Below are positions 14,766 to 61,000 of a stretch of DNA of 64,000 bases, in pieces. This DNA is from Planctomycetota bacterium. Lineage in GTDB: Bacteria; Planctomycetota; SZUA-567; H5-PLA8. The stretch spans positions 64,001 to 128,000 of the forward strand of contig JBBRPR010000006.1 of the NCBI GenBank assembly GCA_038227875.1, written 5' to 3'. A program made the position numbers and the translations under genes. The notes beneath the pieces were generated by a model that did no database searches, had not been told where the DNA came from, and saw only the letters and a program-made list of their open reading frames with translations. How positions within the stretch are numbered: position 1 is the stretch's first letter; the number at the start of each line of letters is the position of its first letter.

Positions 14766-14794
14766 GGCGGCTCCTTCTTGCGATCACCTTAAGT

Positions 14795-31945: not shown

Positions 31946-31986
31946 CGAATTTCCTCCGCGCGCGCGTTGCTGAAAAGGGACCGCAA

Positions 31987-34041: not shown

Positions 34042-34905
34042 ATGGCTAACGGCTTCACCATCCCCGAGCGCGTGATCAAGGACGCGTGCACGCGCGTGCT
34101 GCGCGTCGACACCGTCTGGCGCTACATTATCGCCGGCGGAAAAAACCACGGCACCAAGCCCGACAAGCACGTCAACACCACCATGCCGTCGCTGGGCATC
34201 AACGTGGTGTTGCGAGGACGCGGCAAGTACATCGACGCCGCCGGCCGCGAGTACGATCTTTATCCCGGCATTCTCTTTCATCGCTTCCCGAACAAAATTC
34301 ACACCACGTGGTTCGATCCCGCCAGCGAGTACACGGAATTCTTCGTCTGCATCGACTCCAACACCGCCGCGCAGCTCGGGCAACTCGGGCTGGTCTCCAC
34401 CACCGCGCCGCTGGTCGATCTGGGCGTGAGCGAAGTGATCACCGACGAATACCTGCGCCTGCTCGACCGCATGAAACTGACCGAAAGCGAGCTGCCCACG
34501 TCAGTGATGCTGATGGACCTGCTGAATTTCGTCAACGGACTCTACGAACGCGCGCGCCGCAACCGGGCGCTGGGCTACTGGGACAAGATCATCGCTGACG
34601 CGCGCTTGCTGCTGGAACGCGACCTGGGTTCGCGCGTGAGCATGGAAGCCGTGGCCGACAAGCTCGGCGTGTCGTACACGGCCTTCCGCAAGAAGTTCCG
34701 CGAAACCGTCGGCATCTCACCGGGCGACTACCGCATTCACTGCCGCTTGGAATCCGCGCAGACCCTGCTGATGAACCGCTCGATCAAGCAAGTCGCAACG
34801 ACGCTGGGCTATTGCGATCAGTTCACGTTTTCGAATCAGTTCAAGAGCTACGTCGGCGTTTCGCCGAGGGCGTATCAGCAGCGGCTGAAAGTGACGGGAC
34901 GGTAA
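34042..34905 (+). CDS. AraC family transcriptional regulator (paralogue of 19914-20816)
   Basis: INVVLRGRGKY, HTTWFDP, LGVSYTAFRKKF, GYCDQFTFSNQFK..VGVSPRAY. Confidence 0.93.
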   Translation: MANGFTIPERVIKDACTRVLRVDTVWRYIIAGGKNHGTKPDKHVNTTMPSLGINVVLRGRGKYIDAAGREYDLYPGILFHRFPNKIHTTWFDPASEYTEFFVCIDSNTAAQLGQLGLVSTTAPLVDLGVSEVITDEYLRLLDRMKLTESELPTSVMLMDLLNFVNGLYERARRNRALGYWDKIIADARLLLERDLGSRVSMEAVADKLGVSYTAFRKKFRETVGISPGDYRIHCRLESAQTLLMNRSIKQVATTLGYCDQFTFSNQFKSYVGVSPRAYQQRLKVTGR

Positions 34906-35383: not shown

Positions 35384-36103
35384 TCACGCCACCGTTCCCA
35401 GCTTGATCTTCAAATCCTTCCGCTCGACGATCTTCGCCACCGTGCCTTCGGAGATCCAGATCACGCGGTCGGACGCGGCCAGCATCTTGTGATCGTGCGT
35501 CGCGGTGATCACCGTCACGCCGTTTTCGCGCGAAAGCTTCGAGAGGATCGCGATGATGTCTTCGCCGGTCTTCAAATCCAGGTTGCCCGTCGGTTCGTCG
35601 GCCAGAATGATGCTCGGATCGTTGGCCAGAGCGCGGGCGATGGCCACGCGCTGCTGCTGTCCGCCGGAGAGTTCTCCGGGTTTGTGCGATGAACGTTCGC
35701 CCAATCCCACGGACGCTAGCAGTTTCTGCGCTTTGATTTCGGCCTGATCCTTGGGCACGCCGCTGAACATGATCGGCATCGAGACATTCTGCAATGCGGT
35801 GAGCGCCGGCATCAGGTTGAAGCTCTGGAAGACGTACCCGATCCACGCACAGCGCACGAACGCGCGCTTGCGGGAGGAGAGTTCGGGAATGTTGATGTTA
35901 TCGATTTCGACGCGTCCTTCCGACGGCGTGTCGAGCCCGCCGATCATGTTGAAGAGCGTCGACTTTCCCGAACCGGACGGCCCCATGATCGAAACGTACT
36001 CGCCGCGAAAGATCTCCAGGTCCACGCCCTTCAGCGCGTACACGGTTTCGCCGCGCATCTTGTAGGACTTCTTCAATCCGACGCAGCGAATCAATGTTTC
36101 CAT
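35384..36103 (-). CDS. ABC ATPase, LolD/MacB type
   Basis: [46 protein letters not shown]. Confidence 0.96.
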
Positions 36104-36169
36104 AACAACTACTCCGACCCGACTGTTGACTTTTAACCACGCCGCCAATTGGCGGCATGGTACCTCCGT

Positions 36170-38245
36170 TCAAAACGCGGTCTGCAACACCGCCTTGCTC
36201 AAGAACACCAATCCGACGGAGAAAATCGAAACTAACCCAGCCCCGCAAAAATATCCCGCGCACAGCACCGGCGCGATCTGGAACCATTTCGCGCCGAATC
36301 GCTTCTGGAAATAATACCGCCCCAGCAGCGCGCCGAAAATCTGCGGGATGATGTTGTGCGGCAGCGACTGATTCAAGCCCTGCACCACGCCGTACATCAG
36401 GAAAATCGGCGCGCCGAAATAGTTCAGCACCGAGTACACACCCACGGAAGCGACCGCGCCGATGGCGATCAGCGGCGGCTTCAGCGCTTCGTCGAACTGC
36501 GAGAACTCGCCCATCGTCGACGAGTAGACCACGCACTGATTTTTCGCCTGCAGTTCCCACATCTTCGACGCAAACGGATATGCCGCCGACGGGACGGGCG
36601 CCAGCGACCAGATCAGATTTGCGAAGAGGATCGAACTGACAATTACGATTGGGAACGTGATCACGTCGGCCTTCCAGATCGATTTGAACTTCGAACCGAC
36701 CAGTTCCGACTGCCGGTAGAAGACCGTCTGCAATCCGTAATTGCCCAATGGCAGTGGTACGAACCAGATGTTCAATCCGCGATAGCCGCTGAGAATGAAT
36801 CCAGCCTCGCGGATGTACGGAATATCGACGGCCTGGCCGACCATGCCTTCCAAACGCGCGGTGACGTAGCTGATCAGCGGCGTGTAGAGAAATCCGTAGA
36901 ACAACAGCACCACCATCACGCCCGTGTGCCACTTGATCAGCCAGCCGGAGACGCCGATGTAGATCAACGTCGTCACAATGTAGACGGCGATTACGATCCA
37001 GGCGGGGATGTGGCCGCGTTCGTTATAATAATCCTGATCCTTCTGCGGATCGCGCGCGCTCGCCGACTTGACTTGCGCTTTTCGGAAACTGCGCCAGATC
37101 GCGTAAAATCCGATCAACGCCAGGCCGATGGCGATGCCCGCTCCGAAAGAAAGGTAAAAGTCGATATTATTTTTAAACGAGGTGGCGATGGTATCGTCGC
37201 CGGCCTGCCACGAATGCAGCGTGCCGTTGTGCTGGAGAATTGGATTGAGAACAAACGTCATCACCATCCCAACGGCGGCGCCGACGACCGCAAAAAATGG
37301 CACCACCATGCCCACGATCACGTTGGCCAGATCGAATGATAATCCGGTCGCCACGGCGGGAAGGAACGTCTGCGTCTTGGTCGTCCAATCGACAAACGGA
37401 ATGGGAAATACCGCCAGGCTATCGTTCAGAAACGCCTGGCTGACGGCCGGGAGCGCAATGTAGATCAGCGCAAAGGCCATCCCCAGCGCGCCGCCGATGC
37501 TGAACGTCCGCCAGCGCCAGCGCGACGTGGTTTCCGTCGCCTCGTCGGCATCCTCCGCCAGCGCCACCACGCCCTGAGCGCCGATCGGCGCCATGGGAAA
37601 CGGCAGCTGTTCGATGTCGCTGGCGACGCGGAAAAGTCCGTAGCAGAGAATCGTGTTGTTCAAACGGCCGATCACGTTCTGAAAGATGATCATGCCGATC
37701 ACCGGCATCCATTCCCACATGAAAAACGAACGATGGCGCAGCACCGCCGGATCGTGCGGCGCGACCCAGGACGGAATCAAATCCGTGTACCCCAGGTTAT
37801 TCACCGCTTCGCTCTGCACGAAAAACTGATTCCAGATCAAGCCACCAAACGGCGTCGCGAGCAATCCGCCGGCGATGTAGAAGAAGACGAAAATCTCCGC
37901 CTTGCCCAGCGCCTTGTGCGCGCGCTTGGCAATTTCGATGAAGAGAATCACCGTCACCCACTGCGCCGCCGGGCCGATGCCGCTGCCGGCCAGCAGATTC
38001 ATGTACATCGCGCCCGGCACCATCAGCAGCGCCACGAACGCCGACCCGGCCAGCGAAATCCACGAGAACCCATCGACGAACGTCGACGGCGGCGTCATCA
38101 ACGAGCGGTAGCGTTCCAGTTCCGGATCGAGATTCGACGATGCCTTCGGCGCTTCGACGACCACCGCCGCGACGGTATCGTTCGGCGAGGCCGGTGGCGC
38201 GTCCGGCTTCTCGAAGTCGGGTCCTGGGGGAGGAGTGTCAGACAC
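36170..38245 (-). CDS. OPT-like polytopic membrane protein (putative peptide transporter)
   Basis: More than 14 hydrophobic segments and a DIEQLPFPMA motif; start overlaps the upstream stop. Confidence 0.7.
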   Translation of the reverse strand: MSDTPPPGPDFEKPDAPPASPNDTVAAVVVEAPKASSNLDPELERYRSLMTPPSTFVDGFSWISLAGSAFVALLMVPGAMYMNLLAGSGIGPAAQWVTVILFIEIAKRAHKALGKAEIFVFFYIAGGLLATPFGGLIWNQFFVQSEAVNNLGYTDLIPSWVAPHDPAVLRHRSFFMWEWMPVIGMIIFQNVIGRLNNTILCYGLFRVASDIEQLPFPMAPIGAQGVVALAEDADEATETTSRWRWRTFSIGGALGMAFALIYIALPAVSQAFLNDSLAVFPIPFVDWTTKTQTFLPAVATGLSFDLANVIVGMVVPFFAVVGAAVGMVMTFVLNPILQHNGTLHSWQAGDDTIATSFKNNIDFYLSFGAGIAIGLALIGFYAIWRSFRKAQVKSASARDPQKDQDYYNERGHIPAWIVIAVYIVTTLIYIGVSGWLIKWHTGVMVVLLFYGFLYTPLISYVTARLEGMVGQAVDIPYIREAGFILSGYRGLNIWFVPLPLGNYGLQTVFYRQSELVGSKFKSIWKADVITFPIVIVSSILFANLIWSLAPVPSAAYPFASKMWELQAKNQCVVYSSTMGEFSQFDEALKPPLIAIGAVASVGVYSVLNYFGAPIFLMYGVVQGLNQSLPHNIIPQIFGALLGRYYFQKRFGAKWFQIAPVLCAGYFCGAGLVSIFSVGLVFLSKAVLQTAF

Positions 38246-41200
38246 GTTGCGCGTCTCCTGCCGTCACCGGCGCTTTTCGCGTGCTGATTTGCGATTTGAT
38301 GGCCTCGTCGGTCTTCGCGCGGTAATTTTCCATCGCGTCATGATTCAGCGCGCGCCAGATCAGGAACTGCTTACGCAGATCGTTGATGAAAATGCGATTG
38401 AAGCGCTCCCAGTTCGCCGGACGGCCGGACAGGCGGTGGAATTCGATATTCACTTCCTGAATGCCCGGAATCGACGAGGGCACCGTGGAGAGCTTGAACG
38501 TCTGGCTCACGCCCAGGTCGAACGGCGCCAGCCACACTTTCGCGTGCAGGCCCAGCGTGCGCGAATCGCCAATCTTCAGGATCTCCGCATCCTGCGCCGA
38601 GAAGTGGCCGAGCGAAATGTCGTTGTGGCTGTCGAGATGTTCCTTCAGGAAGCTCACGATGCCCTTCATGTCGTAGCTCGACACCGTGAACGGGAAGACG
38701 ATGCTGTGAATATCCCCCTGCGGCTTGGGCAATTTCCACGAGCGGTTGACGCCGGGGTTCGCTGAACGCGAGGCCTTGATCGCTGGATAGATCGTCGAGA
38801 GCAGCACGGTGGCCATCACAATCAGAATCGTGATGATTGCCGTCGATGAGGAGTAATTCACGTTCGGCACCCGCACGATGCCATAGTGCGTGCTCAAGAA
38901 TGTCAGCACCGTCACCAAGGATTGCCCGAGCAGGTAACCTCCCAGCCCGCCCAGCACCGCGTAGATGAAGACTTCAGCGAAGAACAACGTTGCGACATGC
39001 GGCGGCGCCAGGCCCAGCGCGCTGAACGTAAAGATTTCCTTCTCACGTTCGACCACCGAACCCAGCATCGTGCTGAAGACAATGAGCCCGCCCAGCAGCA
39101 GCGGCACAATCAAATCGCCGATGCCCGTGAAACTCACGCGGTCGGTGAACTGGAAGCGGTGGACGCCGTCCGGCAATCCCGCGTAGACGTAATTGTCACT
39201 CAGCCGCGCGACTTTGCGTGCGATCGCTTCGGCGGCTTCGGGCTTTTTGGGCATGACGATGATCGCGCGCGGCCACGCTTTCATTTTTTCCATGTTCTTG
39301 TCGGAGACAAACGCGACCTGCGCAGGACTGATCGACGTCAGCGAACCCGGATCGATGTTCTGCAGGATGGCGCGCAGCACGTCTTCGCTCATGTTCTGAT
39401 CGTTGCTCTGCGACATCTCCATCGCCGCCTGAAAATCCAGCGGCAGGTATGGTGATCCGTCGAGTTGCCGGATTTTCTCGACCTTCAGATTGTCGAACGT
39501 GCCCGCAACTGTGTAGGGATAGCCCCAGAGCGTCACTGAATCGCCACGCTTGAGTTTCAGTTTCTCCAGCATGTCTTCGCTCAGGAAAATGCCATCGCCT
39601 TCGAGCATCTTCTTGGTATCGCCTTCCAGCGCGTCGAAGATCTCCGGCGTCACACGGTGATCGAACTCCGAGACGGCCATGACGCCATTAAGCATCATCG
39701 GCGAACGGCTGGTGCGCGTCATCACCGGCGCCTGCATGGGCTGAAACGGCCCGCCGGACATCGAGACGCGCGCGTAAACGTCGGCCTCTTCGGATAGCAA
39801 CGACTTCAGCGCGCTGACCTGATCTCGGTCGATCGGCGACCACGTGACGTTGTGGATCAGCATGTAGTTCTTGTTGTTCTGCTGACCCAGGTACGAATGG
39901 ATTACGTCCGACGTCGAACTGAAACTGGCGAAGCAGAGAATCGTGAACGTCAGCAGCACTACCGTGACGGCCGTCAGCGTCGTGCGCAGCGGCCGGCGGC
40001 GCATCGTCGAGATGCCCATCTGCACCGCCGCCAGCATCGTGCTCATGCGGCTGACTTCCGACGTGTGCACCGATCCCGCGAGTCCCTGCATCGTGCGGAT
40101 TTCGCTCTGGAACTTCTGCATCACGATCATGATCACAAAACCGCTCATCACGATGATCGTAAACGCCAGGAAAATGATCATCGGCGTCGCCGCGAGCTGG
40201 AAGGCGGGATGCACGGCGTAGAGCGCCAGGAACGTGATCAGAAAGAAGCCCGCAAAGCCGGCGATCTGGCGGTAGATGTTCGGCGAGCCGATCAGCAGGC
40301 GTTCCAGGCTGAAGGCGAAGGGGATCGTCAGAATCAGCAGGAAGATCACGGCGTGGATCACGTCGTCCATCGTCGCGATGATGGGATTGTAGATGCGATT
40401 GCCCGCAATCGCCGACGCTTCGGCGTGCGCGTATGCGCTGCCCCATTTGCCTGCGGCAGCCGCGTCCTTGGATTCGGCCAGTTGGTCTTCGCCAAAGCCG
40501 TGCATGCGTTCGATGGAATTGTCGTACAGCCCCGCGCGCCGCAGCCGCTTCAGGCGGCTTTCGTTCAGATTCCACAAATCGCCGGACGCCGTGAGCGCCG
40601 TCGATAGCAGCAGCGGCCGCACCAGACTACCGTACGCGGGATCGGCGTCGGGATCCTCCGGCGTCCACGAAACGCCCGTGCCCATCGGGTTGTCCGGCGA
40701 GCCTTTGATCAGCGGCAGCAGCGTCTTGCCGAACAGTTTGACGCTCTTGCCAAACGGCACGTAAAACGCCATCGTCGTGTCCACGGCGCGGATGTAATAA
40801 TGGGGGAAATCCGCATCGGTCTCCGCGTTCAGCAGCTTCCAGTCGCTCTCCTTGATGACGTTGCCCGTCAGCGTATCGCGGCAGAGCGTCAGCGCGGCGC
40901 CCTGGGCATGGAAGAGCTTCAGTTTGACCGGCGCATTGGCGAAATTGGCGAAGCAGACGCGGTTACCGCCCTCGTTGTGATTGACGATGTATGTGACGCG
41001 CCCCCGCGCATCGAATTTCGCCGCGTCGAAGGCCCATTCGTTGGGCACCACCGACGGCATGTCGAAGAAACCCAGTGAATCGGTGAACATGTACAGCGTC
41101 CGGTCGAAGCCGGGGATGTAATTGTATTCCGAAAAGTTCATCGCGCTCTTGCGCGCCGGCAGCGCCGCGACAATCACGCCCGCCGCCGGTTCGTCGGTGA

Positions 41201-43187: not shown

Positions 43188-43999
43188 CCCCCCACCCCGC
43201 TCAGGTCGCCCAGTTCGCTCAGGCCGCCGACTTCCGCTTCGTGAATTTCGATCTCCGAACGCATCGCCGAGCGTTCGATCTTGCCGTCGCGGATCCAGAC
43301 CATGCGGTCGCACGCGGAGAGAAACTTGTGGTCGTGCGTGACGCAGATCACGCTCACGCGCTGTTCGTCGCGCAGCTTGCGCAGGATGCCCAGGATTTCC
43401 TTGCCCGTTTTCAGGTCGAGATTCGCTGTGGGCTCGTCGCACAGCAGCAGCGACGGCTGGTTGGCCATCGAGCGCGCGATTGCCACGCGCTGCTGCTGGC
43501 CGCCCGACATTTCCAGCGGCCGATGCGCCCAGCGCTCTTTCAAGCCGACCAGGTCGAGCAGCTTCATCCCGCGTTCGCGCCGCGCATCGGCGTCCAGTCC
43601 GGCGAAGGCCATCGGCGTGGTCACGTTTTCCAGCGCCGTCATCTGGCCGATCAGGTTGTACGTCTGAAAGATGTAGCCGATTTTGCGGCAGCGCAGGTAC
43701 GCCAGTTCGTGCGCGTCCAGCTGCGCCACGTCGACTTCGTCGATGAACACACGCCCGGACGTCGGCGAATCCAACCCGCCGATGATGTTAAAGAACGTCG
43801 ACTTTCCGGAGCCCGAGGGCCCCATGATGCAAATGAAGTCGCCACGGTGAATCACATAGTCAATACCCTGCAGCGCGTGCGTTTCGGTGTTGCCACGATA
43901 ATAGGTCTTGCGCAATTCGACCGTGCGCACGATCACCGGACGCTCGTTGGGATCGTCTTCGAGCTCCGCGTCTGCAGTTGTCGTCACGGCTGGATTCAT
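43184..43999 (-). CDS. ABC ATPase, LolD/MacB type
   Basis: [42 protein letters not shown]. Confidence 0.96.
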   Translation of the reverse strand: MNPAVTTTADAELEDDPNERPVIVRTVELRKTYYRGNTETHALQGIDYVIHRGDFICIMGPSGSGKSTFFNIIGGLDSPTSGRVFIDEVDVAQLDAHELAYLRCRKIGYIFQTYNLIGQMTALENVTTPMAFAGLDADARRERGMKLLDLVGLKERWAHRPLEMSGGQQQRVAIARSMANQPSLLLCDEPTANLDLKTGKEILGILRKLRDEQRVSVICVTHDHKFLSACDRMVWIRDGKIERSAMRSEIEIHEAEVGGLSELGDLSGVGG

Positions 44000-44026
44000 C
44001 GCACTCGTTTCCCGATTACCACTTCG

Positions 44027-46150
44027 CTACTCGACCCGCATCGCTTCCATCGGCGCCATGCGCGAGGCCACCCACGCCGGATACACGGCCGCGAGCATCG
44101 CCAGCAGCATTCCCGCCGCCGTCGACACGCCTGAATTCTTCAACACATCCACAAACGGAAAGTAACTCGAGGTATAAAACCCGTATGCCGCGCCGCAGCG
44201 CATCACGGCCAGGATCAATCCCAGGATCACGCCGAAGACCGCGCCGATCAGCCCCTGCAATCCCGATTCGATCAGGAAGATGGTCATGATGAACTCGTCG
44301 AGCGCGCCCAGGCACTTCATCGTCGCGATTTCGCGGAACCGTTCCGTTACGGCCATCAGCATCGCATTGGCGATACCCACGACGCAGACCAGAAACGAAA
44401 CGGCGATCAGCCAGAATGTTCGTTCACTGATGCCTTCCGTCTTTGTGCCGCGCGATTCCAACTGCGCTTGCATTTCGCGCACGCTCGTGCGCGCCTCTTC
44501 CATTTTTCCGACTTCCATGATCTCGTCTTCGGTCACCGGCAGCGGCGCCTTCACGCGGCTGGCGATGTGGCGCGCGTTGCTCTCGACGTAGCCGATCACC
44601 TGCGGGCTCTTCTCATCGGCGCTGCAGTAGAGCATGATCGCCGCCGGACTGTAGTCGGTGCTGATCCCCAGTTCGTCCCAGTGGGCCTTGTACTCTGGAT
44701 CTTTCAAGTAGGCGGCCAGTGCTTCGAATTTCGGATTGCCGGCGGCCGCCGGTTCCAGTGGGACTTTCTGCAGGCCGCGCTTCTGCACCCAGCGCAGATA
44801 ACTTTCCGCCAGCGATTTCACATCGTCTTCACTGCACGGCAGCGGGTTGGGAAGCGAAGCGGCCGTATCCAGCAGCCAGCGCCGCACCGCGCGGTTGTCG
44901 TTGAAGTACCAGAGCAGATTTTCGTTGCTGAACTCCTCGGGCAGGCCCAGCGTCTTCCATTTCTCCGTGAACACGGGATTGTCGATGTAGTTGATGAACT
45001 TTTTCTGTCGTTCCGATTTGTAAACTTCGCCGTCGGAAAGATGCGCGATCGAGCGCCCCGCATTCTGCACCAGCACGCGGTACGCGTTGGAAAAGGTCAG
45101 CAGTTCGTCGCGCGTCACGGGCAGCGGCGTGGTCGTGCGGGTCGCAACGACCTCCGCGTGGTCACGCACCCACTTCCGCACTTTTTCTTCCGTGATGTAG
45201 TGCTTGAGCAGTTCTTCGGGTTTGTAATCGCCGGGAATTTTCAGATCCGACCAATGGCTGCGAAATTCCGCGTCCGGCACGTAATCGCGGAACAACCGCA
45301 ACGCCGCGAGCTTGTGGCGGTCGGCGCAGACAGCCGTCAGTTCATCGGCCGTCACTTCAAATCCCGCCGACGTCAGCGCCGTCAGCAACTCCGCGCGCCT
45401 GGCCTGCGCGGCGGCCGGATCCTTCAGATTCGCCGCGGCATCCAAAGCCTTTTCCACGGGCATTCCGAGCCTGGCATCCACGGTATCCAGCGCCGCGATA
45501 ATGCTTTTTTCCAGCGCGGCCAACTGCGCGCGGTAGGCCGGCCAGTCGTTCTCAAATTTCCAGAGCGCCGGCAGTTCATGAGGAATGGTAACCGCCGCCA
45601 TTTCCGGCGATTTCAAATCCTGCGCAAACTCCCGCTGCGGAGTGGGATCGACGAGGTACTCGAAAATCGCGTCGCCATCGTTGCGCTTCACCAGCCGCCG
45701 CTTGCGCCCGAAGTCCAGCGCATCGAAAAATGCCGTGAATTCAATCTCGAGTTTCGCCGACTGGATCAGCTGCTCGAATTCCGCGGCGGAACCCGACCAG
45801 CGCGACAGTTCCTTCCAGCGCGGCTGCTCCGGCTTGAGCTTCGCCAATTCCTTGACCAGCGTCGAGCGCGGCGTGTTCCGCGCCAGGCGCTGCGCGAAAA
45901 TGTCCGCGACATAGAGGCGTTCGAATTCGCGCTGCACACCGCGCGCCACGGAATTCGAGATGATAGTCTCGGTCAGGATGTTCATCAAGAACGCCACGGC
46001 CAGCACGATCACCGAGAGCGTCACCGCCGAACGGAAGAAGCGGTGGCGGATGCTGCTGACGCAGAATTCGAAGCTGCGCCGAAACGACAGCTTCTCCTGG
46101 TCGCGCACGGCCTTCTTCACCGCGATTCCTTTTTCGGCCACCTGTTCCAC
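44027..46150 (-). CDS. FtsX/MacB-type ABC permease with a large extracytoplasmic domain
   Basis: RFFRSAVTLSVIVLAVAFL (TM1); GIANAMLMAVTERFREIATMKCLGA; YPAWVASRMAPMEAMR. The GTG start shares a base with the upstream TAG. Confidence 0.9.
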   Translation of the reverse strand: MEQVAEKGIAVKKAVRDQEKLSFRRSFEFCVSSIRHRFFRSAVTLSVIVLAVAFLMNILTETIISNSVARGVQREFERLYVADIFAQRLARNTPRSTLVKELAKLKPEQPRWKELSRWSGSAAEFEQLIQSAKLEIEFTAFFDALDFGRKRRLVKRNDGDAIFEYLVDPTPQREFAQDLKSPEMAAVTIPHELPALWKFENDWPAYRAQLAALEKSIIAALDTVDARLGMPVEKALDAAANLKDPAAAQARRAELLTALTSAGFEVTADELTAVCADRHKLAALRLFRDYVPDAEFRSHWSDLKIPGDYKPEELLKHYITEEKVRKWVRDHAEVVATRTTTPLPVTRDELLTFSNAYRVLVQNAGRSIAHLSDGEVYKSERQKKFINYIDNPVFTEKWKTLGLPEEFSNENLLWYFNDNRAVRRWLLDTAASLPNPLPCSEDDVKSLAESYLRWVQKRGLQKVPLEPAAAGNPKFEALAAYLKDPEYKAHWDELGISTDYSPAAIMLYCSADEKSPQVIGYVESNARHIASRVKAPLPVTEDEIMEVGKMEEARTSVREMQAQLESRGTKTEGISERTFWLIAVSFLVCVVGIANAMLMAVTERFREIATMKCLGALDEFIMTIFLIESGLQGLIGAVFGVILGLILAVMRCGAAYGFYTSSYFPFVDVLKNSGVSTAAGMLLAMLAAVYPAWVASRMAPMEAMRVE

Positions 46151-46500
46151 TATTTCTTCCCCGGCAACACGGCGATGATTCCACGTTCGCTCAGCATCCG
46201 CATGAATTGCAACACCGCCGCACGCGATTCTTGAAAGCTGAGCTTGTGCTTTTCCATCATCTGCCGCACCACGTCTTCGACGCGGTGCCGCCCGTCGCAT
46301 TGCGACAACACCCACGCGCCCATTGCATCCAACTGCACGCGCCGCGCGCTGGAAAGCGGAAATACCCACGTCAGCGGCGCGCGCGCCCACCAGCGCTTCT
46401 TCATGGGAATCGTCACCAGCACGCCGCGCGAATTCTCTTCCAGCATCGCGGCGCGATTCTGGTGCGGAATCGCCTTCAGCATCTCGTCTTTGGCGCTCAT
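46150..46500 (-). CDS. PqqD/RRE-like protein (116 aa)
   Basis: VQLDAMGAWVLSQCDGRHRVEDVV...VLQFMRMLSERGII matches the PqqD winged-helix pattern. Confidence 0.78.
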   Translation of the reverse strand: MSAKDEMLKAIPHQNRAAMLEENSRGVLVTIPMKKRWWARAPLTWVFPLSSARRVQLDAMGAWVLSQCDGRHRVEDVVRQMMEKHKLSFQESRAAVLQFMRMLSERGIIAVLPGKK

Positions 46501-47381
46501 CGCGAATCCTTCCCGCAACACGAGACCACGTCTTCCAGTTGCGGCGCGCCGTCCACTGCGCCTTCCCACTCCGCCGCGTACAACCGCTCTTCGCTGTCGC
46601 AAACCCACACCGCCGCGCGGCTGGATCGCTTCACCCGTGTGAGCAACTGCAGCGGCGTCGGCCGCCCGGGCTTCAACCGCACGCTGACGCCCGTATGCCG
46701 GCCGATCTTCGTGCCGTCGCTGCCGAGCACCCGTTTGGGTTCATCCAGCGTGCTGGCAAACCAGTCTTTCAAACTCCGCCCCTTTAATTGCGCCTCCGGC
46801 AGTGCGAAGCGTTCGATGCGCACGCGCTGCTGCTTGCGCCCGCGCGTCGCGAACGACAGTGCCGCGCGGCCGGGAAACACATCGCACGATTGTACGTCGT
46901 ATTCACTGGGCAGCCGCACCGCGCAGCCAAACGCCCGCCAGCGCCACGCCGTGCCGGGTTTCTGGCAGTGGAAGCTTTCCAGGATTCGCCGCTGCAGCGC
47001 CAGGTCGCACTTCCGGTCGGTGGTGAACTGCGCCTGCAAAAGGTGGCCGGAGTCCGCAAAATAACCCACTGCGACAGTCAGGTCCTCTTCCGCGCCGCGC
47101 CATTCAATGCCCGACCAGCCCGCCGCACTTTTCAGCGTCTGCCATTTGCGCTGAAGCAGCGCGCCTTTCGGATCGCTCTTGCCCAGCTGCGCCGCGGCTT
47201 CCTCAAGAATCATCGTCGCGTTCACCGTCTTCGCCTCGACCCTGCCCCACAGCAGGCTCAAACGCCGCCCGCGCGGATCGGCCAGCGCGCATTCGCCGCG
47301 CTGGCGCTTCTTGCTGAAGCGCACGCACTCCCAGTCGTCGGGATGCTCAAACTGTATTCCCTGCCAGGCAAACGTCTGCAT
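46497..47381 (-). CDS. Hypothetical soluble protein
   Basis: Coupled (ATGA) to the PqqD-like gene; FAWQGIQFEHPDDW and WRAFGCAVRLPSEY motifs. Confidence 0.75.
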   Translation of the reverse strand: MQTFAWQGIQFEHPDDWECVRFSKKRQRGECALADPRGRRLSLLWGRVEAKTVNATMILEEAAAQLGKSDPKGALLQRKWQTLKSAAGWSGIEWRGAEEDLTVAVGYFADSGHLLQAQFTTDRKCDLALQRRILESFHCQKPGTAWRWRAFGCAVRLPSEYDVQSCDVFPGRAALSFATRGRKQQRVRIERFALPEAQLKGRSLKDWFASTLDEPKRVLGSDGTKIGRHTGVSVRLKPGRPTPLQLLTRVKRSSRAAVWVCDSEERLYAAEWEGAVDGAPQLEDVVSCCGKDSR

Positions 47382-47394
47382 CGTGGACGAGCCT

Positions 47395-49695
47395 CTAGAA
47401 GGGGAAAATGCCATAGTAGCGGGGCTCCTGCCCCGTCCAGAAATACCACATCGGTCCGACCGCGATCCAGAACATCCCGCCGCACAAATCGCCGATGATC
47501 AGCCCGATGAACAGCGGCTTGAGATTCTGATACGTCCGCCCGCCCCCGATCCTCACCACCAGCATCTTGATCAGCCAGCCGAGCATGAATGACCAGAGAA
47601 AATTATTCGTCGCCCAGACGTTCCAGAACAAAAACGCGACCGGGTGCAGCGGCCACCACGTGTAGCGCAAGCGCAGCATCGACGTCAACGCCACCAGGCC
47701 AATGCCGATGATGAAGAATGTGACCAGGCTTGGGTTGGTGTCGCGCACGTCGCTCGACAATCGCCCCAGCCCCTCGACCGTCTTGGAGACCTCCAGATTT
47801 CCGGTGCGCTTGAGCTTCTGAATTTCACGCGAGACGTCTGACGCAAAACTCGTCGGCACCCAGCGGCCCATGTGCCCGTCGTTGGCCGCGCCGCGGCTGT
47901 AAATCACCCACAGCATCGCAATCCCCGCCACGAACAGCGCCGGCACCAGCATCGTCATCATCGCGCGGCTCAGCGGCGCGGGCGCCACCTGGTTACGCCC
48001 TCCCAGGCGCAGGCAGTTGATCACGTACGGCGCAAGGCACTCGCGATTGTCCTGCATCGTCGCCACGGTCACCAATTGCAGCAGGTACAGGCTGGCCGGG
48101 CCAATCGCCGCCGGACCCAGCGCCGCGACGATCAGGGCGCGTGCGAAAAATGGCGTACCCATGAAGGGAATGCCCGTCTCCGCCGACGCGCGCGCCAGCA
48201 CCAGGAACATTACGCCGATAATGAAGACCATCGCCGTCGCCAGCAGCCAGTCCAGCCCGAGATTGATCAGGAGCAGGATGAACAGGATGGTCGCCGCGAT
48301 AAACCAGCGGCACGCCGCGACGGCTGTGTCGTTGGGATCGGCGTCCGAACGCCAGAAAAGCGCGCGCTTCAAAATTGCCAGATAATAGTAGCGCCCCGTG
48401 TAGCAGATCACCGCCGCCATCGCGACGTATGAACCGAAGAGCGTGAAGTTCAGCTCGTCGCCGTTGATCGGCCGGCCGAACTGGTACATCGTCGCCGTCA
48501 GCACCGCCAGCAGCGGCAGCGACATCCCCAGGCTGAACGAAATCTCTTCGGGGAGAAAATACGCGAAAGCCACGATCGTCAGGTAGACCACGCCCGCGTA
48601 CATCATGTACGTGTTGCCTGCGGCGTGGTGGAAGTACTGAAACTTGCTCCACCAGATCCCGCTCAAGTTCCAACTCATCGGAATCTTGATCATGCGTTCG
48701 TCGTACACATGCCAGCCGTTGATTAAATGCAACATCAGCGTGCAGCCGAATGCGATCCAGAAAAGCCGGTTGTAGAACACATCGCTGAACGTCCGGCCGC
48801 GCTCATTTTTCATCAGCGAGTACGCGAACTCGGCAATCGGATACGACAACTGCTCGTTCTCCGACCACTGCCGGTGAACAATGCGGCACATGCTGATGAT
48901 AAAGATCATCATCACGATCAGAATTGGAAACCAGACCTTGGCCGGTCCCAGCCACGCCCACAGCGGCAGATCGGCCAGATGGTTGAGCACTCCATGCACG
49001 CCCTGCTTGAGCCACTCGGCAAACGGCGTATCGCGCAGCGGCGGCAGATCCTTGCCCTTGGTGAGTCCTTGCGCGTAGCCGTCGTAAACGCGGCCGTCGT
49101 CGTCGCGTTTGGGAAAGACATTCGGATTGATTTCCGAGACGTAGCGGTCCGGCTCGGCTTTCTGCCAATCGGCGACCGCCTTGCCATAATGTTGGGGCAT
49201 CACCAGCATCTGCGGCAAGTTGCGCATCAACCCCGAGGTCGGCAGCGAACCGGCGACCAGCGTCATCGACAGAATCACGACCAGCTCGCCGCGCGTGAAC
49301 ACCCGCAGCGGATTGACGCGCAACAGCGCCGAACACGCCGCGACCAGCGCGCAGATGGGAATGAAAATTTTGAGCGGTAAGGCGCTCTGCACCAGCCACG
49401 AAAATCCGCTGACCAGCGCGAGCGACGCTACCATCACCACGGGAATGAACCCGCTGCGCTGCGCGAATTTGCTCAAGAGTGGATTCACCACGACGAGCAT
49501 CACAAAGAACGCCGTGTAGACCGTCAACGGCAGATGGTTGCCGACGAAGAGATTCTGCTTGATGCCGTAATCGTTGTAGTAGGAAAATCCCGCGATGAAC
49601 AACCCCGCGCCCAACCCCAGCAGCATCGACCGCAGGGTGAACGAACGCGTATCTTCAGGGGTCTTAGTGGGGGGACCTGCCAGCACTCGAAGCAC
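47395..49695 (-). CDS. OPT-like polytopic membrane protein (DUF6785/DUF6784-like)
   Basis: Many TM helices; RQWSENEQLSYPI, AETG, WWPLHP, PLFIGLIIGD motifs. DUF label is from recall. Confidence 0.75.
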   Translation of the reverse strand: MLRVLAGPPTKTPEDTRSFTLRSMLLGLGAGLFIAGFSYYNDYGIKQNLFVGNHLPLTVYTAFFVMLVVVNPLLSKFAQRSGFIPVVMVASLALVSGFSWLVQSALPLKIFIPICALVAACSALLRVNPLRVFTRGELVVILSMTLVAGSLPTSGLMRNLPQMLVMPQHYGKAVADWQKAEPDRYVSEINPNVFPKRDDDGRVYDGYAQGLTKGKDLPPLRDTPFAEWLKQGVHGVLNHLADLPLWAWLGPAKVWFPILIVMMIFIISMCRIVHRQWSENEQLSYPIAEFAYSLMKNERGRTFSDVFYNRLFWIAFGCTLMLHLINGWHVYDERMIKIPMSWNLSGIWWSKFQYFHHAAGNTYMMYAGVVYLTIVAFAYFLPEEISFSLGMSLPLLAVLTATMYQFGRPINGDELNFTLFGSYVAMAAVICYTGRYYYLAILKRALFWRSDADPNDTAVAACRWFIAATILFILLLINLGLDWLLATAMVFIIGVMFLVLARASAETGIPFMGTPFFARALIVAALGPAAIGPASLYLLQLVTVATMQDNRECLAPYVINCLRLGGRNQVAPAPLSRAMMTMLVPALFVAGIAMLWVIYSRGAANDGHMGRWVPTSFASDVSREIQKLKRTGNLEVSKTVEGLGRLSSDVRDTNPSLVTFFIIGIGLVALTSMLRLRYTWWPLHPVAFLFWNVWATNNFLWSFMLGWLIKMLVVRIGGGRTYQNLKPLFIGLIIGDLCGGMFWIAVGPMWYFWTGQEPRYYGIFPF

Positions 49696-50038: not shown

Positions 50039-50869
50039 TCAGTATCGAGGAGCCGTCTTGCGGTACGTCGCCGGCGGCGTCCCCATCCGCGCTTTGAACA
50101 TCCGCGAAAAATGAAAGCGGTCCAGAAAGCCATGCCGATCCGCGATCTGCTCGATGCTGTCGGTCGAGAAAATCAGTTGCTGCGCCGCCTTGCTCACCCG
50201 CCGCTCCAGGATGAATTGCGCCGGCGTCTGCCCGATCTGCTGCCGAAAGAGCCGGATCAAGTGATCGCGGCTGACGTGACAGACGCGCCCCAACACCGTG
50301 TTGTCGATCGGCTCGGCCAGATGCGCTTCGATGTACTCCAGTGCCGCGGTCATCGTCTGCCTCCCGATCAAATGTTGAGCACAGCGCTCGCGCGCGTCTG
50401 AAGACAATTCGCGCAACACGCCGGCCAAAGCCACATAAATCATTGCCTTCGTGCGCAGCAGCACATCCAGCGTCACCGGTTCATCGGCGATCATGCGCGG
50501 CATCCACGCGGCCACGAGTTCATCCAACTGAGGATCGCGCCTGAGCTGGTACATCTGATTGAAGACCGCGCGAATCACCGTGGCCGGGAGGCTCATCAAC
50601 TCAAAATGAGCGTAGCAATGATCGATCGTCGGCACGCCGCGTCCTTCAAACTGCACCCACGCCGGGATGATGTAGACCCGGCCGGGCAGCATGTTCAGTT
50701 TCACCTCGCGCGTCCAGATCTGCGCGCCGCCACGGGAATTCACATACAGCCGCCAGAAGTTGTTGTTGAACGGGCCTTTCCAGCCCGGACCCAGTCGGAT
50801 GCAATGGGTCGTGAACAGCCGGATATGCAGACTTTCGAGCACCGTCACTTCCGAAAATGCTTGTGGCAT
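50039..50869 (-). CDS. AraC family transcriptional regulator
   Basis: SRDHLIRLFRQQIGQTP; SIEQIADRHGFLDRFHFSRMFK..GTPP. GGAGG RBS. Confidence 0.93.
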   Translation of the reverse strand: MPQAFSEVTVLESLHIRLFTTHCIRLGPGWKGPFNNNFWRLYVNSRGGAQIWTREVKLNMLPGRVYIIPAWVQFEGRGVPTIDHCYAHFELMSLPATVIRAVFNQMYQLRRDPQLDELVAAWMPRMIADEPVTLDVLLRTKAMIYVALAGVLRELSSDARERCAQHLIGRQTMTAALEYIEAHLAEPIDNTVLGRVCHVSRDHLIRLFRQQIGQTPAQFILERRVSKAAQQLIFSTDSIEQIADRHGFLDRFHFSRMFKARMGTPPATYRKTAPRY

Positions 50870-51012
50870 GCAGTCTACCCCCTCCTAATCATGTCGTAAA
50901 AGTACATAGTTTCGCCATTCTTAGCCATAGACGATCTGTGCACAGATGTTGTATTGGTACATACGTCGAACAAACGTTGCGTTTACCTCTCGCCCACTTC
51001 AAGGAGTCACCC

Positions 51013-56050: not shown

Positions 56051-56132
56051 CACCGTTGTCCTCAATTGAAAACGCCATCAATCCCACCTTATATAGGTAG
56101 GACCCCGGTCAGAGTTATACTATATACAACGA

Positions 56133-59889: not shown

Positions 59890-60141
59890 TCCGTAAAACC
59901 CACAAGTTTCCCGTTTCTAGAAGCGTGGAGGTATGATATGCAAACGACGTCCGCTGAACAGGAGGTATTCGTTGGCGGCGCGATTTCAACGCATAGTGCT
60001 GTTCCGGCCATAGACGGCGTTCGGCAAACGGGCGGGGCCTTCGAGACGAGAAATGCGAATAAGCCGCCTGCATAGATTTGGCGCAGCCCAGCCTGGAGTT
60101 CGACACTGGGCAATTTGAAGCCCGAGCCATGGGGATATTCC

Positions 60142-60717: not shown

Positions 60718-60900
60718 GTACACTGACAACCTGACGTGTCACTCGGATCAGGCGAGTGGCATCGGTCCAACACCTCCGCTCTCGTCTTGCTCCGTGGAGT
60801 TGAGTGCCATGCGTCTGAGGCCCTTTTCAGACGCGTGCGTTGCCCGTCGCCTTTCAAGCCACCACGAATTACGCCGTACCGCGCATCTCCAGCTCTTCAT

Positions 60901-60982: not shown

Positions 60983-61000
60983 GAACTATCAAACGGACCT

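What the first reader, a model, noticed from the sequence alone, without database searches (positions are those of the whole stretch)
35384..49695. Eight-gene envelope system: two OPT-like transporters, PqqD/RRE, two FtsX permeases (one fused to an M28 domain) and two ATPases
Seen: eight minus-strand genes with overlapping or near-abutting stops and starts (ATGA at 46497-46500 and 43184-43187, TAGTG at 46150, 8-nt overlap at 38238-38245). Known: FtsX/MacB permeases with LolD-type ATPases form type VII mechanotransducing ABC systems, OPT proteins are secondary peptide/chelate importers, and PqqD folds bind peptides. I know of no characterised pathway that combines all three. Inference: a heteromeric complex in which ATP-driven type VII permeases capture or remodel an extracytoplasmic peptide or glycopeptide and pass it to an OPT-like heterodimer, with a cytoplasmic RRE adaptor. 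This is the strongest candidate for an undescribed system.
Basis: partly seen in the sequence, partly recalled or inferred. Interest (0 to 1): 0.85.

Follow-up and report, generated by a model that had tools for sequence, protein, structure and literature searches.

The report
Conserved ABC plus OPT-like membrane cassette
Eight tightly packed genes encode two ATP-driven MacB-type membrane motors, two transporter-like membrane proteins and two small cytoplasmic binding proteins; this set recurs in hundreds of bacterial species, and none of my literature searches found a paper on it.

Summary
Eight minus-strand genes (35384-49695) overlap or nearly abut exactly as described.

The parts are:
- g1: DUF6785+DUF6784 membrane protein.
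- g2: family-less cytoplasmic protein, modelled as a tandem PsbP/Mog1-like fold.
- g3: PqqD-like.
- g4: MacB-type FtsX permease.
- g5 and g8: LolD/MacB-type ATPases.
- g6: 1649-aa duplicated FtsX permease. Its ~920-aa outer domain has a PA/M28-aminopeptidase fold, but the family lacks most canonical metal ligands.
- g7: distant OPT relative.

The set is a real module. All eight parts recur, reordered, on another contig of the same genome. The core order g4-ATPase-g6-g7-ATPase holds in 46 of 48 loci with room, across Planctomycetota, Verrucomicrobiota, Kiritimatiellia, Lentisphaerae, Fibrobacterota, Omnitrophota and Sumerlaeia. No other neighbour and no precursor peptide gene is conserved. Distribution is patchy (30 of 201 and 27 of 201 genomes in two phyla) and often multi-copy.

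Gene order argues for two sub-assemblies (g1-g4-g5 and g6-g7-g8), not an OPT-OPT heterodimer. Substrate and direction are unknown; I lean towards ATP-assisted uptake. Seven literature searches found no description. This scan has noted the same cassette on other DNA four times.

The parts
47395..49695 (-). g1: polytopic membrane protein, DUF6785 + DUF6784 (766 aa from the longest start); candidate carrier partnered with g4/g5
   Evidence: Pfam PF20581 E 2.5e-63 and PF20580 E 1.4e-23. About 12 hydrophobic spans. 22 of 22 locus homologues carry both domains and 0 of 22 hit OPT. Weak profile link to the g7 family: probability 52%, E 1.4e-4.
46497..47414 (-). g2: 305-aa cytoplasmic protein of no described family, modelled as two PsbP/Mog1/DUF1795-like domains
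   Evidence: No Pfam, NCBIfam or PADLOC hit. No family at E below 0.01 in any of 25 homologues. AF2 model pLDDT 87.9. Foldseek top hits are TplEi/Tli4 and PsbP. VIA-align Z 12.4-12.0 for each half against BT_1490, TplEi, Mog1 and PsbP, and Z 10.2 against SciW. No hydrophobic span.
46150..46500 (-). g3: 116-aa PqqD-like (RRE-type) peptide-binding protein
   Evidence: PF05402 E 9.8e-10, 39.1 bits against cut-off 23.4. No NCBIfam PqqD subfamily reaches its cut-off. The family alignment shows a conserved LD..G....CDG..tVE....LsFhE core.
44027..46150 (-). g4: MacB-type half-permease (707 aa from the GTG at 46150): TM1, ~520-aa outer domain with three ~95-aa repeats, FtsX 3-TM bundle
   Evidence: FtsX PF02687 E 1.7e-15. 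Hydropathy: TM at 42-60, then 581-695. Repeats ending in PLPV/C seen by eye. Family median length is 494 aa, so this copy is long.
43184..43999 (-). g5: LolD/MacB-type ABC ATPase (271 aa), the type that follows g4
   Evidence: ABC_tran E 4.9e-32. LolD TIGR02211 E 4e-66, below its cut-off. Walker [10 protein letters not shown], signature LSGGQQQR and Walker B LLCDEPT are readable in the translation. The ATPase after g4 is g5-type in 59 of 59 cases.
38238..43187 (-). g6: 1649-aa duplicated MacB-type permease: TM1, giant outer domain, 3 TM, loop, TM, second outer domain, FtsX 3-TM bundle, conserved cytoplasmic tail domain
   Evidence: Pfam M28, FtsX, weak PA and weak MacB_PCD. Hydropathy. PADLOC PDLC01991 'CARF_m8--CARF_LolE_TM' E 2.9e-59 over residues 876-1519. 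1190 representatives at E<=1e-30 for the C-terminal half.
40368..43127 (-). g6 outer domain 1 (residues ~21-940): PA + M28-aminopeptidase-like head with a helical insertion (318-466), a beta-rich domain (638-840) and stalk helices (863-936)
   Evidence: AF2 model of residues 1-937: pLDDT 86.9, pTM 0.90. Foldseek hits: 2ek8 E 7.7e-19, BSAP 6hc6, PaAP, transferrin receptor, GCPII. Canonical ligand columns are not conserved.
38241..38765 (-). g6 cytoplasmic C-terminal domain (~175 aa), highly conserved, with no known family
   Evidence: Alignment of 42 members: mean column identity 55%, 21 invariant columns. No PDB sequence match (best E 0.6). No Pfam family at E below 0.01.
36170..38245 (-). g7: 691-aa polytopic membrane protein, distant OPT-family relative, always directly after g6
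   Evidence: No Pfam hit itself, but 17 of 19 homologues hit PF03169, best E 1.4e-11. The nearest Atlas clusters carry OPT on 15-33% of members. About 55% identity across phyla. g6-g7-ATPase order in 54 of 56 loci.
35384..36103 (-). g8: LolD/MacB-type ABC ATPase (239 aa from the ATG at 36103), the type that follows g7
   Evidence: ABC_tran E 8.4e-35. LolD E 5.1e-69, below its cut-off. Walker [10 protein letters not shown], signature LSGGQQQR and Walker B ILADEPT are readable. The ATPase after g7 is g8-type in 67 of 68 cases.

Best explanation
The eight genes encode one self-contained inner-membrane machine built from two units.

Unit A is g4 (a MacB-type half-permease, presumably a homodimer), the g5 ATPase, and the DUF6785/DUF6784 carrier-like protein g1.

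Unit B is g6 (a single-chain, duplicated MacB-type permease), the g8 ATPase, and the OPT-related carrier-like protein g7.

Two cytoplasmic binding proteins, g2 (tandem PsbP/Mog1-like) and g3 (PqqD-like), belong to the set.

Inferred mechanism. MacB-type permeases have no substrate channel. They turn ATP hydrolysis into movement of their outer domains. I propose that the g6 head, an aminopeptidase/transferrin-receptor-like domain with a degenerate metal site, captures an extracytoplasmic peptide-like ligand. It acts as a receptor rather than an enzyme. ATP-driven motion then hands the ligand to the adjacent OPT-fold carrier, which takes it across the membrane. The PqqD-like and PsbP-like proteins receive it in the cytoplasm.

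Shown: the gene set, its conservation, the domain identities, the two ATPase lineages, and the strict g6-g7 pairing.

Inferred: physical assembly, a peptide-like substrate, and inward direction.
For: - All eight parts recur, reordered, on C12 of the same genome. g6-g7 and g1-g4-ATPase stay adjacent there.
- Core order g4-A-g6-g7-A in 46 of 48 loci, and g6-g7-A in 54 of 56.
- In 29 loci with wide flanks: g4, ATPase, g6 and g7 in 29 of 29; two ATPases in 28; PqqD in 25; g2 in 21; g1 in 19. The g1 count is a lower bound because the 10-kb flank cuts it off.
- In five further genomes, all 9 g7 loci have a g6-type gene directly upstream.
- Two ATPase lineages stay fixed to their positions: 59 of 59 and 67 of 68.
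- No other conserved neighbour (best extra family in 8 of 80 loci). No conserved small ORF (best in 3 of 80).
- OPT link for g7. By established knowledge, not a call, OPT carriers are importers.
- DUF6785 proteins also occur without any FtsX gene nearby, which fits autonomous carriers. One directly follows a GH39/CBM9 enzyme (L087, L088, L091).
- The receptor-like head has the aminopeptidase/TfR/GCPII fold, 5 of 40 homologues hit the nicastrin model, and the canonical ligands are lost.
- Patchy, multi-copy distribution of the kind uptake systems often show: 30 of 201 and 27 of 201 genomes, with up to 4-5 matches (some fragments) per genome.
Against: - No characterised MacB-type system imports anything (recalled knowledge).
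- PqqD-like and Eag/PsbP-like proteins are better known for holding peptides or proteins before modification or export, which would suit an exporter.
- No contact between any two parts was shown. The one complex job (g2+g3) gave no verdict.
- g1's kinship to OPT is weak (0 of 22).
- A variant locus in one Omnitrophota genome (L089: g1-g6-g7-g2-g3) has no ATPase or g4 within 17 kb. The motor is therefore not always encoded in cis.
- The head keeps a set of invariant polar residues (D246, N263, R281, H487, D494, D516). A non-canonical active site is not excluded.
- Neighbours give no substrate clue: 7 glycoside-hydrolase or CBM proteins and 3 peptidases among the 114 neighbours scanned.
Confidence: 0.38

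Rival explanations
1. Export or secretion machine. A cytoplasmic peptide or protein is held by the PqqD-like and PsbP-like proteins. It crosses the inner membrane through the OPT-fold proteins. The two MacB-type motors then push it on from the periplasmic face, as MacAB or PvdRT do for periplasmic cargo.
For: - All characterised type VII ABC systems work outward or do periplasmic mechanical work (recalled).
- g3 is a PqqD/RRE-type peptide binder.
- g2 has the fold of Eag/SciW secretion chaperones and T6SS immunity proteins.
- Both g2 and g3 lack signal peptides and membrane spans.
Against: - No conserved precursor gene in or within 1.5 kb of the cluster.
- No modifying enzyme, membrane-fusion protein or outer-membrane factor among conserved neighbours.
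- Known OPT members import (recalled).
- g2 and g3 are missing from some loci: found in 21 and 25 of 29.
Confidence: 0.25
2. Envelope-maintenance or sensing device. As with FtsEX-EnvC, LolCDE or BceAB-BceS, the motors do mechanical work on an envelope component (lipoprotein, lipid-linked peptide, wall fragment). The OPT-fold proteins serve as recyclers or as flux sensors.
For: - Best NCBIfam models are LolD, LolC/E, FtsX and MacB.
- The pseudo-enzyme head is fused to the permease, as if a FtsEX-type partner had been built in.
- The g6 cytoplasmic tail domain is very highly conserved.
- A PADLOC model named for a CARF sensor domain matches g6.
Against: - Found in only 13-15% of sampled genomes of two phyla, and often multi-copy. 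That does not fit a housekeeping envelope function.
- No NCBIfam cut-off is reached.
- No kinase, hydrolase or carrier protein is conserved nearby.
Confidence: 0.17
3. Anti-phage or conflict system. The patchy, multi-copy, horizontally mobile-looking membrane cassette acts as a defence effector. The g6 cytoplasmic domain senses a nucleotide signal.
For: - g6 residues 876-1519 match PADLOC PDLC01991 'CARF_m8--CARF_LolE_TM' at E 2.9e-59, and PDLC01990 at E 2.6e-24.
- Patchy distribution.
Against: - The match covers the membrane part of the model (positions 8-596 of 810), not its C-terminal remainder. I only guess that the named CARF domain lies in that remainder.
- The g6 tail has no Pfam or PDB sequence match.
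- No CRISPR or cyclase genes are conserved nearby.
- The other five proteins sent to PADLOC gave no hit beyond the generic FtsX region.
- The paper that defined CARF_m8 (PMC7498327) is not held and was not read.
Confidence: 0.05
4. Two or three independent transporters that merely sit together, with no joint function.
For: - No physical interaction was demonstrated.
- DUF6785 genes also occur alone.
- g1, g2 and g3 change position between loci.
Against: - Co-occurrence survives reordering within one genome and across at least seven named phylum-level groups.
- Stop/start overlaps.
- Fixed ATPase lineages.
- Strict g6-g7 adjacency.
Confidence: 0.08

Closest known systems
Type VII (MacB-type) ABC systems: MacB, LolCDE, FtsEX, BceAB, YbbP/ADOP duplicated permeases
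   Same: FtsX 3-TM bundle preceded by TM1 and a large outer domain (g4; twice in g6). Separate LolD/FtsE-like ATPases with intact Walker A, signature and Walker B motifs.
   Different: - No curated NCBIfam cut-off is reached.
- No MacA/TolC, LolA or EnvC-type partner is conserved.
- The outer domain of g6 is a ~920-aa aminopeptidase-like head.
- Each motor is encoded with a ~700-aa polytopic carrier-like protein. I know of no such pairing in any characterised member, and none of my searches found one.
OPT / Yellow-Stripe-like transporters (Pfam PF03169, TC 2.A.67)
   Same: 17 of 19 g7 homologues hit PF03169. g7 has about 13 hydrophobic spans and g1 about 12. g1 and g7 share an E(K/Q)LP(F/Y)P motif at the end of their only aligned stretch.
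   Different: - g7 itself is below Pfam detection.
- g1 is DUF6785/DUF6784 with no OPT hit.
- Known OPT carriers work alone on proton-motive force (recalled). Here they are locked in an operon with ABC motors.
PA-domain M28 aminopeptidases (BSAP, PaAP) and their inactive relatives (transferrin receptor, nicastrin); GCPII is an active relative
   Same: Fold match at E 7.7e-19 to 1e-12. Pfam M28 hit on 29 of 40 homologues and nicastrin hit on 5 of 40.
   Different: - Only the first ~78 of 193 M28 profile positions match, because a ~150-aa helical insertion splits the domain.
- First His ligand kept in 7 of 65 members; the bridging Asp and Glu-Glu are replaced.
- The domain is fused to an ABC permease.
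PqqD / RiPP recognition elements
   Same: PF05402 above its cut-off, with the conserved PqqD core motif.
   Different: No radical-SAM or other maturase and no precursor gene nearby. No NCBIfam PqqD subfamily cut-off is reached.
PsbP/Mog1/DUF1795 fold proteins (PsbP, Mog1, TplEi/Tli4, SciW/Eag chaperones, DcrB)
   Same: Each half of g2 superposes at Z 10-12.4.
   Different: No sequence family. Tandem form in the cytoplasm, encoded in an ABC operon. Conserved W..C and C-terminal CC residues of unknown role.

Membership tests
Type VII ABC (MacB/LolCDE/FtsEX) | FtsX-type C-terminal transmembrane bundle | tested here: met
   PF02687 above its cut-off in g4 (57.5 bits) and g6 (41.3 bits).
Type VII ABC (MacB/LolCDE/FtsEX) | TM1 followed by a large extracytoplasmic domain before the bundle | tested here: met
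   Hydropathy: g4 TM 42-60, then 581-695. g6 TM 1-19, then 943-1022, and TM 1071-1089, then 1360-1472. This is a prediction only.
Type VII ABC (MacB/LolCDE/FtsEX) | LolD/FtsE/MacB-type nucleotide-binding subunit with intact motifs | tested here: met
   ABC_tran E 4.9e-32 and 8.4e-35. Best NCBIfam model is LolD, but below its cut-off. Motifs are readable.
Type VII ABC (MacB/LolCDE/FtsEX) | MacB-type periplasmic core domain (Sabre/Porter) | tested here: inconclusive
   PF12704 on g6 residues 1072-1327: E 0.0011, 19.7 bits, below the cut-off of 27. None on g4.
Tripartite MacAB-TolC-type pump / Lol pathway | Conserved adaptor, outer-membrane factor or carrier partner gene | tested here: not met
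   No further family is conserved around 80 loci; the best is in 8 loci, a Gfo/Idh/MocA oxidoreductase. One LolA-domain neighbour among the 114 scanned.
OPT family (PF03169) - g7 | Match to the family profile | tested here: inconclusive
   g7 itself has no hit at E<=0.01. 17 of 19 homologues hit, best E 1.4e-11. No PDB sequence match for the profile.
OPT family (PF03169) - g1 | Match to the family profile or to g7 | tested here: inconclusive
   0 of 22 homologues hit PF03169 at E<=0.05. hhalign against the g7 family: probability 52%, E 1.4e-4 over 105 columns. One Atlas cluster carries both OPT and DUF6785.
OPT family | OPT/Yellow-Stripe fold and peptide or chelate transport | not tested
Earlier scan notes claim the fold, but I did not check them. 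Transport cannot be tested with these tools.
PqqD / RRE | PqqD domain profile | tested here: met
   PF05402, 39.1 bits against a cut-off of 23.4.
RiPP biosynthetic cluster | Precursor peptide gene and maturase beside the RRE | tested here: not met
   No conserved small ORF (best in 3 of 80 loci). No conserved enzyme neighbour.
Peptidase M28 | M28 fold | tested here: met
   Foldseek: 2ek8 E 7.7e-19, 6hc6, 8acg, TfR, GCPII. Model pLDDT 86.9.
Peptidase M28 | Co-catalytic metal ligands (His-x-Asp, bridging Asp, Glu-Glu) | tested here: not met
   In 65 aligned members: His at the H-x-D position in 7; Asp 246 in 63; Asp in at most 7 of 65 at the G-A-x-D position (commonest residue Gly); Glu-Glu replaced by G/N plus Q/E. 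I mapped the columns to the canonical motif by eye from memory.
CARF_m8 (PADLOC PDLC01991) | CARF sensor domain | tested here: inconclusive
   The model matches g6 876-1519 (profile positions 8-596 of 810), i.e. the membrane part. The g6 tail has no Pfam or PDB sequence hit. The defining paper is not held.
PsbP/Mog1/DUF1795 fold | Alpha-beta sandwich fold | tested here: met
   Z 12.4-12.0 for residues 9-153 and 152-300 of the g2 model. Foldseek E 1.4e-5 to 1e-3.

The most novel reading that the evidence does not exclude
A new class of hybrid transporter. Secondary-carrier-fold (OPT-like) proteins would be obligate subunits of MacB-type mechanotransducing ABC motors, so that ATP hydrolysis in the cytoplasm drives a receptor-like pseudo-peptidase head to load or unload the carrier. 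That would be the first MacB-type system acting in uptake. It could be a major route for peptides or other oligomers in PVC-group, Fibrobacterota and Omnitrophota bacteria.
Probability: 0.3. Interest if true: 0.88.

Novelty: new variant of a known kind. Interest (0 to 1): 0.72.

Why it matters
MacB-type ABC systems are thought to work only outward or to do mechanical work in the periplasm, and OPT carriers are thought to work alone. This cassette locks the two together. It also includes a 1650-residue permease with a receptor-like pseudo-peptidase head and two cytoplasmic binding proteins. It occurs in at least 591 species-level genomes and in about one in seven sampled Planctomycetota and Verrucomicrobiota.

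If the parts assemble, this is an unrecognised transporter architecture. These bacteria are environmentally abundant, and their uptake and envelope biology is poorly understood. The cassette also gives first functional contexts to DUF6785, DUF6784, the g2 family and the conserved g6 tail domain.

Tried and rejected
- **Complex prediction g2+g3:** no verdict (score 0.02). It counts neither way.
- **RNA evidence for co-transcription:** no RNA holder listed.
- **Fused forms of g7 among longer proteins:** none found, which is weak evidence.
- **Direct BLASTP g1 vs g7:** nothing significant.
- **g7 and its profile against PDB sequences:** nothing.
- **g6 tail against PDB and Pfam:** nothing.
- **g6 PA/M28 region against PDB sequences:** only weak hits to the transferrin-receptor apical domain (E 0.33).
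- **Rfam over the whole window:** no match.
- **Promoter and terminator scan:** no more sites than in shuffles.
- **Search for other outer domains on relatives of the g6 C-terminal half:** the listed hits (120 and 150) are mostly proteins of about 1500-2100 aa. Pfam domains, given only, are FtsX with or without M28 or nicastrin, and no other outer domain was found. The shorter hits in these lists are probably fragments.
- **Substrate clue from neighbours:** I scanned 114 of the 130 chosen neighbours and skipped the other 16. The result is heterogeneous housekeeping and metabolic genes. Seven carry a glycoside-hydrolase or CBM domain and three are peptidases. I judged this no better than background but ran no control.
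- **Literature.** All seven searches came back empty or irrelevant:
  - 'DUF6785/DUF6784': 0 papers.
  - 'FtsX / OPT family / PqqD': 1 irrelevant paper.
  - 'CARF / LolE': 9 papers hold both terms; the 8 listed are irrelevant.
  - 'CARF domain superfamily / minor CARF': 70 papers hold a term; the 8 I saw listed are on CRISPR-Cas signalling.
  - 'COG1297/COG0577/COG1136': 11 papers hold at least two terms; none of the 10 listed has COG1297.
  - 'PF20581/PF20580/M28 family peptidase/FtsX-like permease': 0.
  - 'OPT family/MacB/Planctomycetes': 0.
- **Makarova et al. 2020 (PMC7498327):** this paper defined CARF_m8. It is not held, so I saw only its reference entry. It may discuss g6-like proteins.
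- **Archaea:** not examined, because no archaeal genome handle was available. The only lead is one Atlas row, an archaeal DUF6784/DUF6785 cluster at score 0.86.

Full report
**1. Observation**

The region 35384-49695 holds eight co-directional minus-strand ORFs.
- ATGA at 46497-46500.
- ATGA at 43184-43187.
- TAG/GTG sharing one base at 46150.
- An 8-nt overlap (GTGTCTGA) at 38238-38245.

Three junctions were not listed: a 20-nt overlap of g1 and g2 (47395-47414), a 27-nt gap g4-g5, and a 21-66-nt gap g7-g8. Homologue alignments begin near the short starts, which supports GTG 46150 for g4 and ATG 36103 for g8.

**2. What the parts are**

Pfam and NCBIfam give the following:
- **g1:** DUF6785 + DUF6784.
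- **g2:** nothing.
- **g3:** PqqD, above its cut-off.
- **g4:** FtsX.
- **g5 and g8:** ABC ATPases. Their best models are LolD, MacB, DevA and FtsE, but none reaches its curated cut-off.
- **g6:** Peptidase_M28 (only profile positions 1-77 of 193) plus FtsX. PA and MacB_PCD are sub-threshold.
- **g7:** nothing.

g7 nevertheless belongs to a very conserved family. 1750 proteins scored E<=0.001 among 8000 candidates, with about 55% identity across phyla. 17 of 19 aligned members hit OPT PF03169. The nearest Atlas clusters carry OPT on 15-33% of their members.

g1 is tied to OPT only weakly. The evidence is a 52%-probability profile match to the g7 family, ending at a shared E(K/Q)LP(F/Y)P motif. 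None of 22 g1 homologues hits PF03169, while all 22 carry DUF6785 + DUF6784.

Hydropathy gives these topologies:
- g4 has the classic MacB layout: TM1, a ~520-aa outer domain, then three TM.
- g6 has that layout twice in one chain: TM1, a ~920-aa outer domain, three TM, a loop, a TM, a ~270-aa second outer domain, three TM, and a ~175-aa cytoplasmic tail.
- g2 and g3 have no hydrophobic span.

**3. Structures**

*g2.* The AF2 model (25-row alignment, pLDDT 87.9) is a tandem of two PsbP/Mog1-like alpha-beta sandwiches.
- Foldseek's best hits are the two-domain T6SS immunity proteins TplEi/Tli4, followed by PsbP.
- VIA-align gives Z 12.4-12.0 for each half against BT_1490, TplEi, Mog1 and PsbP, and Z 10.2 against the Eag-type chaperone SciW.
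- No Pfam family matches any of 25 homologues at E below 0.01.

*g6 outer domain.* The model of residues 1-937 (43-row alignment, pLDDT 86.9, pTM 0.90) matches PA-domain M28 aminopeptidases: 2ek8 at E 7.7e-19, BSAP and PaAP. It also matches transferrin receptor and GCPII. Three further features follow:
- A helical insertion (318-466) splits the M28 domain.
- A beta-rich domain spans 638-840.
- Stalk helices (863-936) lead into the membrane.

*Metal site.* I examined the ligand columns in 65 aligned family members.
- The His of H-x-D is kept in 7.
- At most 7 have Asp at the G-A-x-D position; the commonest residue there is Gly.
- The Glu-Glu pair is replaced by G/N plus Q/E.
- D246 (63 of 65) and N263 (65 of 65) are conserved.
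- H487, D494 and D516 are near-invariant.

I placed the canonical ligands by eye from memory. The head is therefore most likely a receptor-type pseudo-peptidase, though a non-canonical site is not excluded. 29 of 40 homologous heads hit M28 and 5 of 40 hit the nicastrin model.

*g6 tail.* The cytoplasmic tail is strikingly conserved: 55% mean column identity and 21 invariant columns in 42 sequences. It matches nothing in PDB sequences or Pfam.

**4. Is it a module?**

Yes. Four lines of evidence agree.

*Within the genome.* All eight parts recur on contig C12 at about 149.3-162.8 kb. The order there is ATPase-PqqD-g6-g7-g1-g4-ATPase-g2. The gene order is shuffled, but g6-g7 and g1-g4-ATPase stay together.

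The 80 best loci were kept. They come from Planctomycetota, Verrucomicrobiota, Kiritimatiellia, Lentisphaerae/Victivallales, Fibrobacterota, Omnitrophota and Sumerlaeia. I ran tblastn with both paralogue sets against them:

| Pattern | Count |
|---|---|
| g4-A-g6-g7-A, loci with room | 46 of 48 |
| g6-g7-A, loci with room | 54 of 56 |
| g4, ATPase, g6, g7 (wide-flank loci) | 29 of 29 |
| Two ATPases (wide-flank loci) | 28 of 29 |
| PqqD (wide-flank loci) | 25 of 29 |
| g2 (wide-flank loci) | 21 of 29 |
| g1 (wide-flank loci; lower bound, 10-kb flank cuts it off) | 19 of 29 |

g1, g2 and g3 sit either upstream of g4 or downstream of the last ATPase, and g2 always comes directly before g3.

*ATPase lineages.* The ATPase after g4 is g5-type in 59 of 59 cases. 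The ATPase after g7 is g8-type in 67 of 68. These are two old lineages fixed to their positions.

*Five further genomes.* All have DUF6785. All 9 of their g7 loci have a g6-type gene directly upstream.

Nothing else is conserved. The best extra family is a Gfo/Idh/MocA oxidoreductase in 8 of 80 loci. The best small-ORF family is in 3 of 80 and looks like shadow frames. Immediate neighbours (114 of 130 chosen were scanned) are heterogeneous.

**5. Distribution**

| Group sampled | Genomes with a g7 match at E<=1e-20 |
|---|---|
| Window's own phylum | 30 of 201 (17 of 128 high-quality) |
| Phylum of Verrucomicrobia bacterium LW23 | 27 of 201 |

- Its closest named homologues are from Planctomycetota.
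- Single genomes have up to 4-5 matches, some of them fragments of one gene. Identity to the window's g7 ranges from about 55% down to about 27%, so there may be old subtypes. The window's genome holds two (100% and 45%).
- The g6 C-terminal half has 2949 representatives at E<=0.001 and 1190 at E<=1e-30 in the 50%-identity library.

The cassette is thus widespread but accessory.

**6. Variants**

In one Omnitrophota genome (G204), DUF6785 has 10 matches. Their contexts differ:
- Some lie in cassettes.
- One locus (L089) reads g1-g6-g7-g2-g3 with no ATPase or g4 within 17 kb.
- Others have no FtsX gene nearby (L087, L088).
- One follows a GH39/CBM9 protein with an 18-nt overlap (L091).

DUF6785 proteins can therefore probably work alone, and the motor is not always encoded in cis.

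**7. How it most likely works**

*Shown:* two ATPase-plus-MacB-type-permease pairs, each conserved next to one ~700-aa carrier-like protein, together with two cytoplasmic binding-fold proteins.

*Inferred:*
- Two assemblies exist, g1-g4-g5 and g6-g7-g8.
- MacB-type permeases have no channel. They convert ATP hydrolysis into outer-domain movement (established knowledge of the family).
- The g6 head acts as a ligand receptor.
- The OPT-fold proteins provide the path across the membrane.

*Direction is open.* I lean towards uptake (0.38) for these reasons:
- Known OPT members import.
- DUF6785 occurs alone, like an autonomous carrier.
- The head resembles receptor-type M28 relatives.
- The distribution is patchy and multi-copy, like that of nutrient systems.

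Export (0.25) is favoured by the outward bias of all known MacB-type systems and by the chaperone-like nature of PqqD and Eag/PsbP folds. It lacks any conserved cargo gene, adaptor or outer-membrane partner. Envelope maintenance or sensing (0.17), defence (0.05) and mere co-location (0.08) are the remaining rivals.

**8. Comparison with the known**

The cassette works like a type VII ABC system and meets its core features. It fails the partner feature of tripartite pumps and of the Lol pathway, and it reaches no curated subfamily cut-off.
- g7 is a distant OPT-family relative. g1's membership is unresolved.
- g3 is a PqqD-domain protein outside any RiPP context.
- The g6 head has the M28 fold without the M28 metal set.

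**9. Novelty**

The seven literature searches listed under Tried and rejected found no description. The paper behind the PADLOC model name (CARF_m8; PMC7498327) could not be read and may mention g6-like proteins.

Earlier notes of this scan describe the same cassette in four other genomes, with readings that agree with mine.
- The fold of g2.
- The full eight-gene definition.
- The in-genome duplicate.
- The fixed ATPase lineages.
- The absence of cargo genes.
- The phylum frequencies.
- The ATPase-less variant.

**10. Verdict**

This is a real, conserved gene cassette that none of my literature searches found described. I class it as a new variant of a known kind (type VII ABC) with an unprecedented obligate pairing to OPT-like proteins. 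Mechanism and substrate remain open.

Noticed in passing
own genome, contig C12 about 149100-163000 (outside the window): A second complete copy of the cassette in a different gene order: ATPase-PqqD-g6-g7-g1-g4-ATPase-g2. Its g7 is 44-45% identical to the window's. Its g4 open frame (stop to stop) is only 276 aa, and its g1 open frame is about 1000 aa, with a long stretch without hydrophobic spans.
   Followed up: partly
window 50039-50869 (-) and 34042-34905 (+): AraC-family regulators flank the cassette on both sides. The upstream one is co-directional with it and ends about 340 nt before g1. No AraC-type regulator appeared among the neighbours scanned in other loci.
   Followed up: partly
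window 52271-56065 (-), 50857-52053 (+), 16356-18803 (-): Carbohydrate-active genes lie nearby: a 1264-aa CBM9 + acetyl-xylan-esterase-like protein, a Gfo/Idh/MocA oxidoreductase, and a GH5 cellulase-like protein. A link to the cassette was not supported by the neighbour survey.
   Followed up: partly
window 60001-62000: GC content falls to 0.49 against about 0.60 elsewhere. At 56-60 kb the AT skew is strongly positive (0.19-0.21). The two large ORFs there (56133-57548 and 58348-59889, both minus) have no Pfam family.
   Followed up: no
window 44027-46150 (g4), residues about 285-620: Three ~95-aa repeats, each ending in PLP(V/C)(T/S).(D/E)E, make this g4 about 200 aa longer than the family median of 494 aa.
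   Followed up: partly
window 36170-38245 (g7), residues 40-60: The cytoplasmic segment before the first membrane span (D.ELE..R.LM..P..F.DGF) is invariant or nearly so across 19 sequences from several phyla. It is a candidate docking peptide for g3, g2 or the g6 tail.
   Followed up: no
L091 (G204:C99) 2-5202: In an Omnitrophota genome, a DUF6785/DUF6784-type gene directly follows, with an 18-nt overlap, a 1161-aa GH39 + CBM9 protein. No FtsX or ABC gene is nearby.
   Followed up: partly
window 29243-31945 (-), 31930-32931 (+), 14756-16153 (+): Large ORFs (900, 333 and 465 aa) with no Pfam family at E<=1e-5.
   Followed up: no
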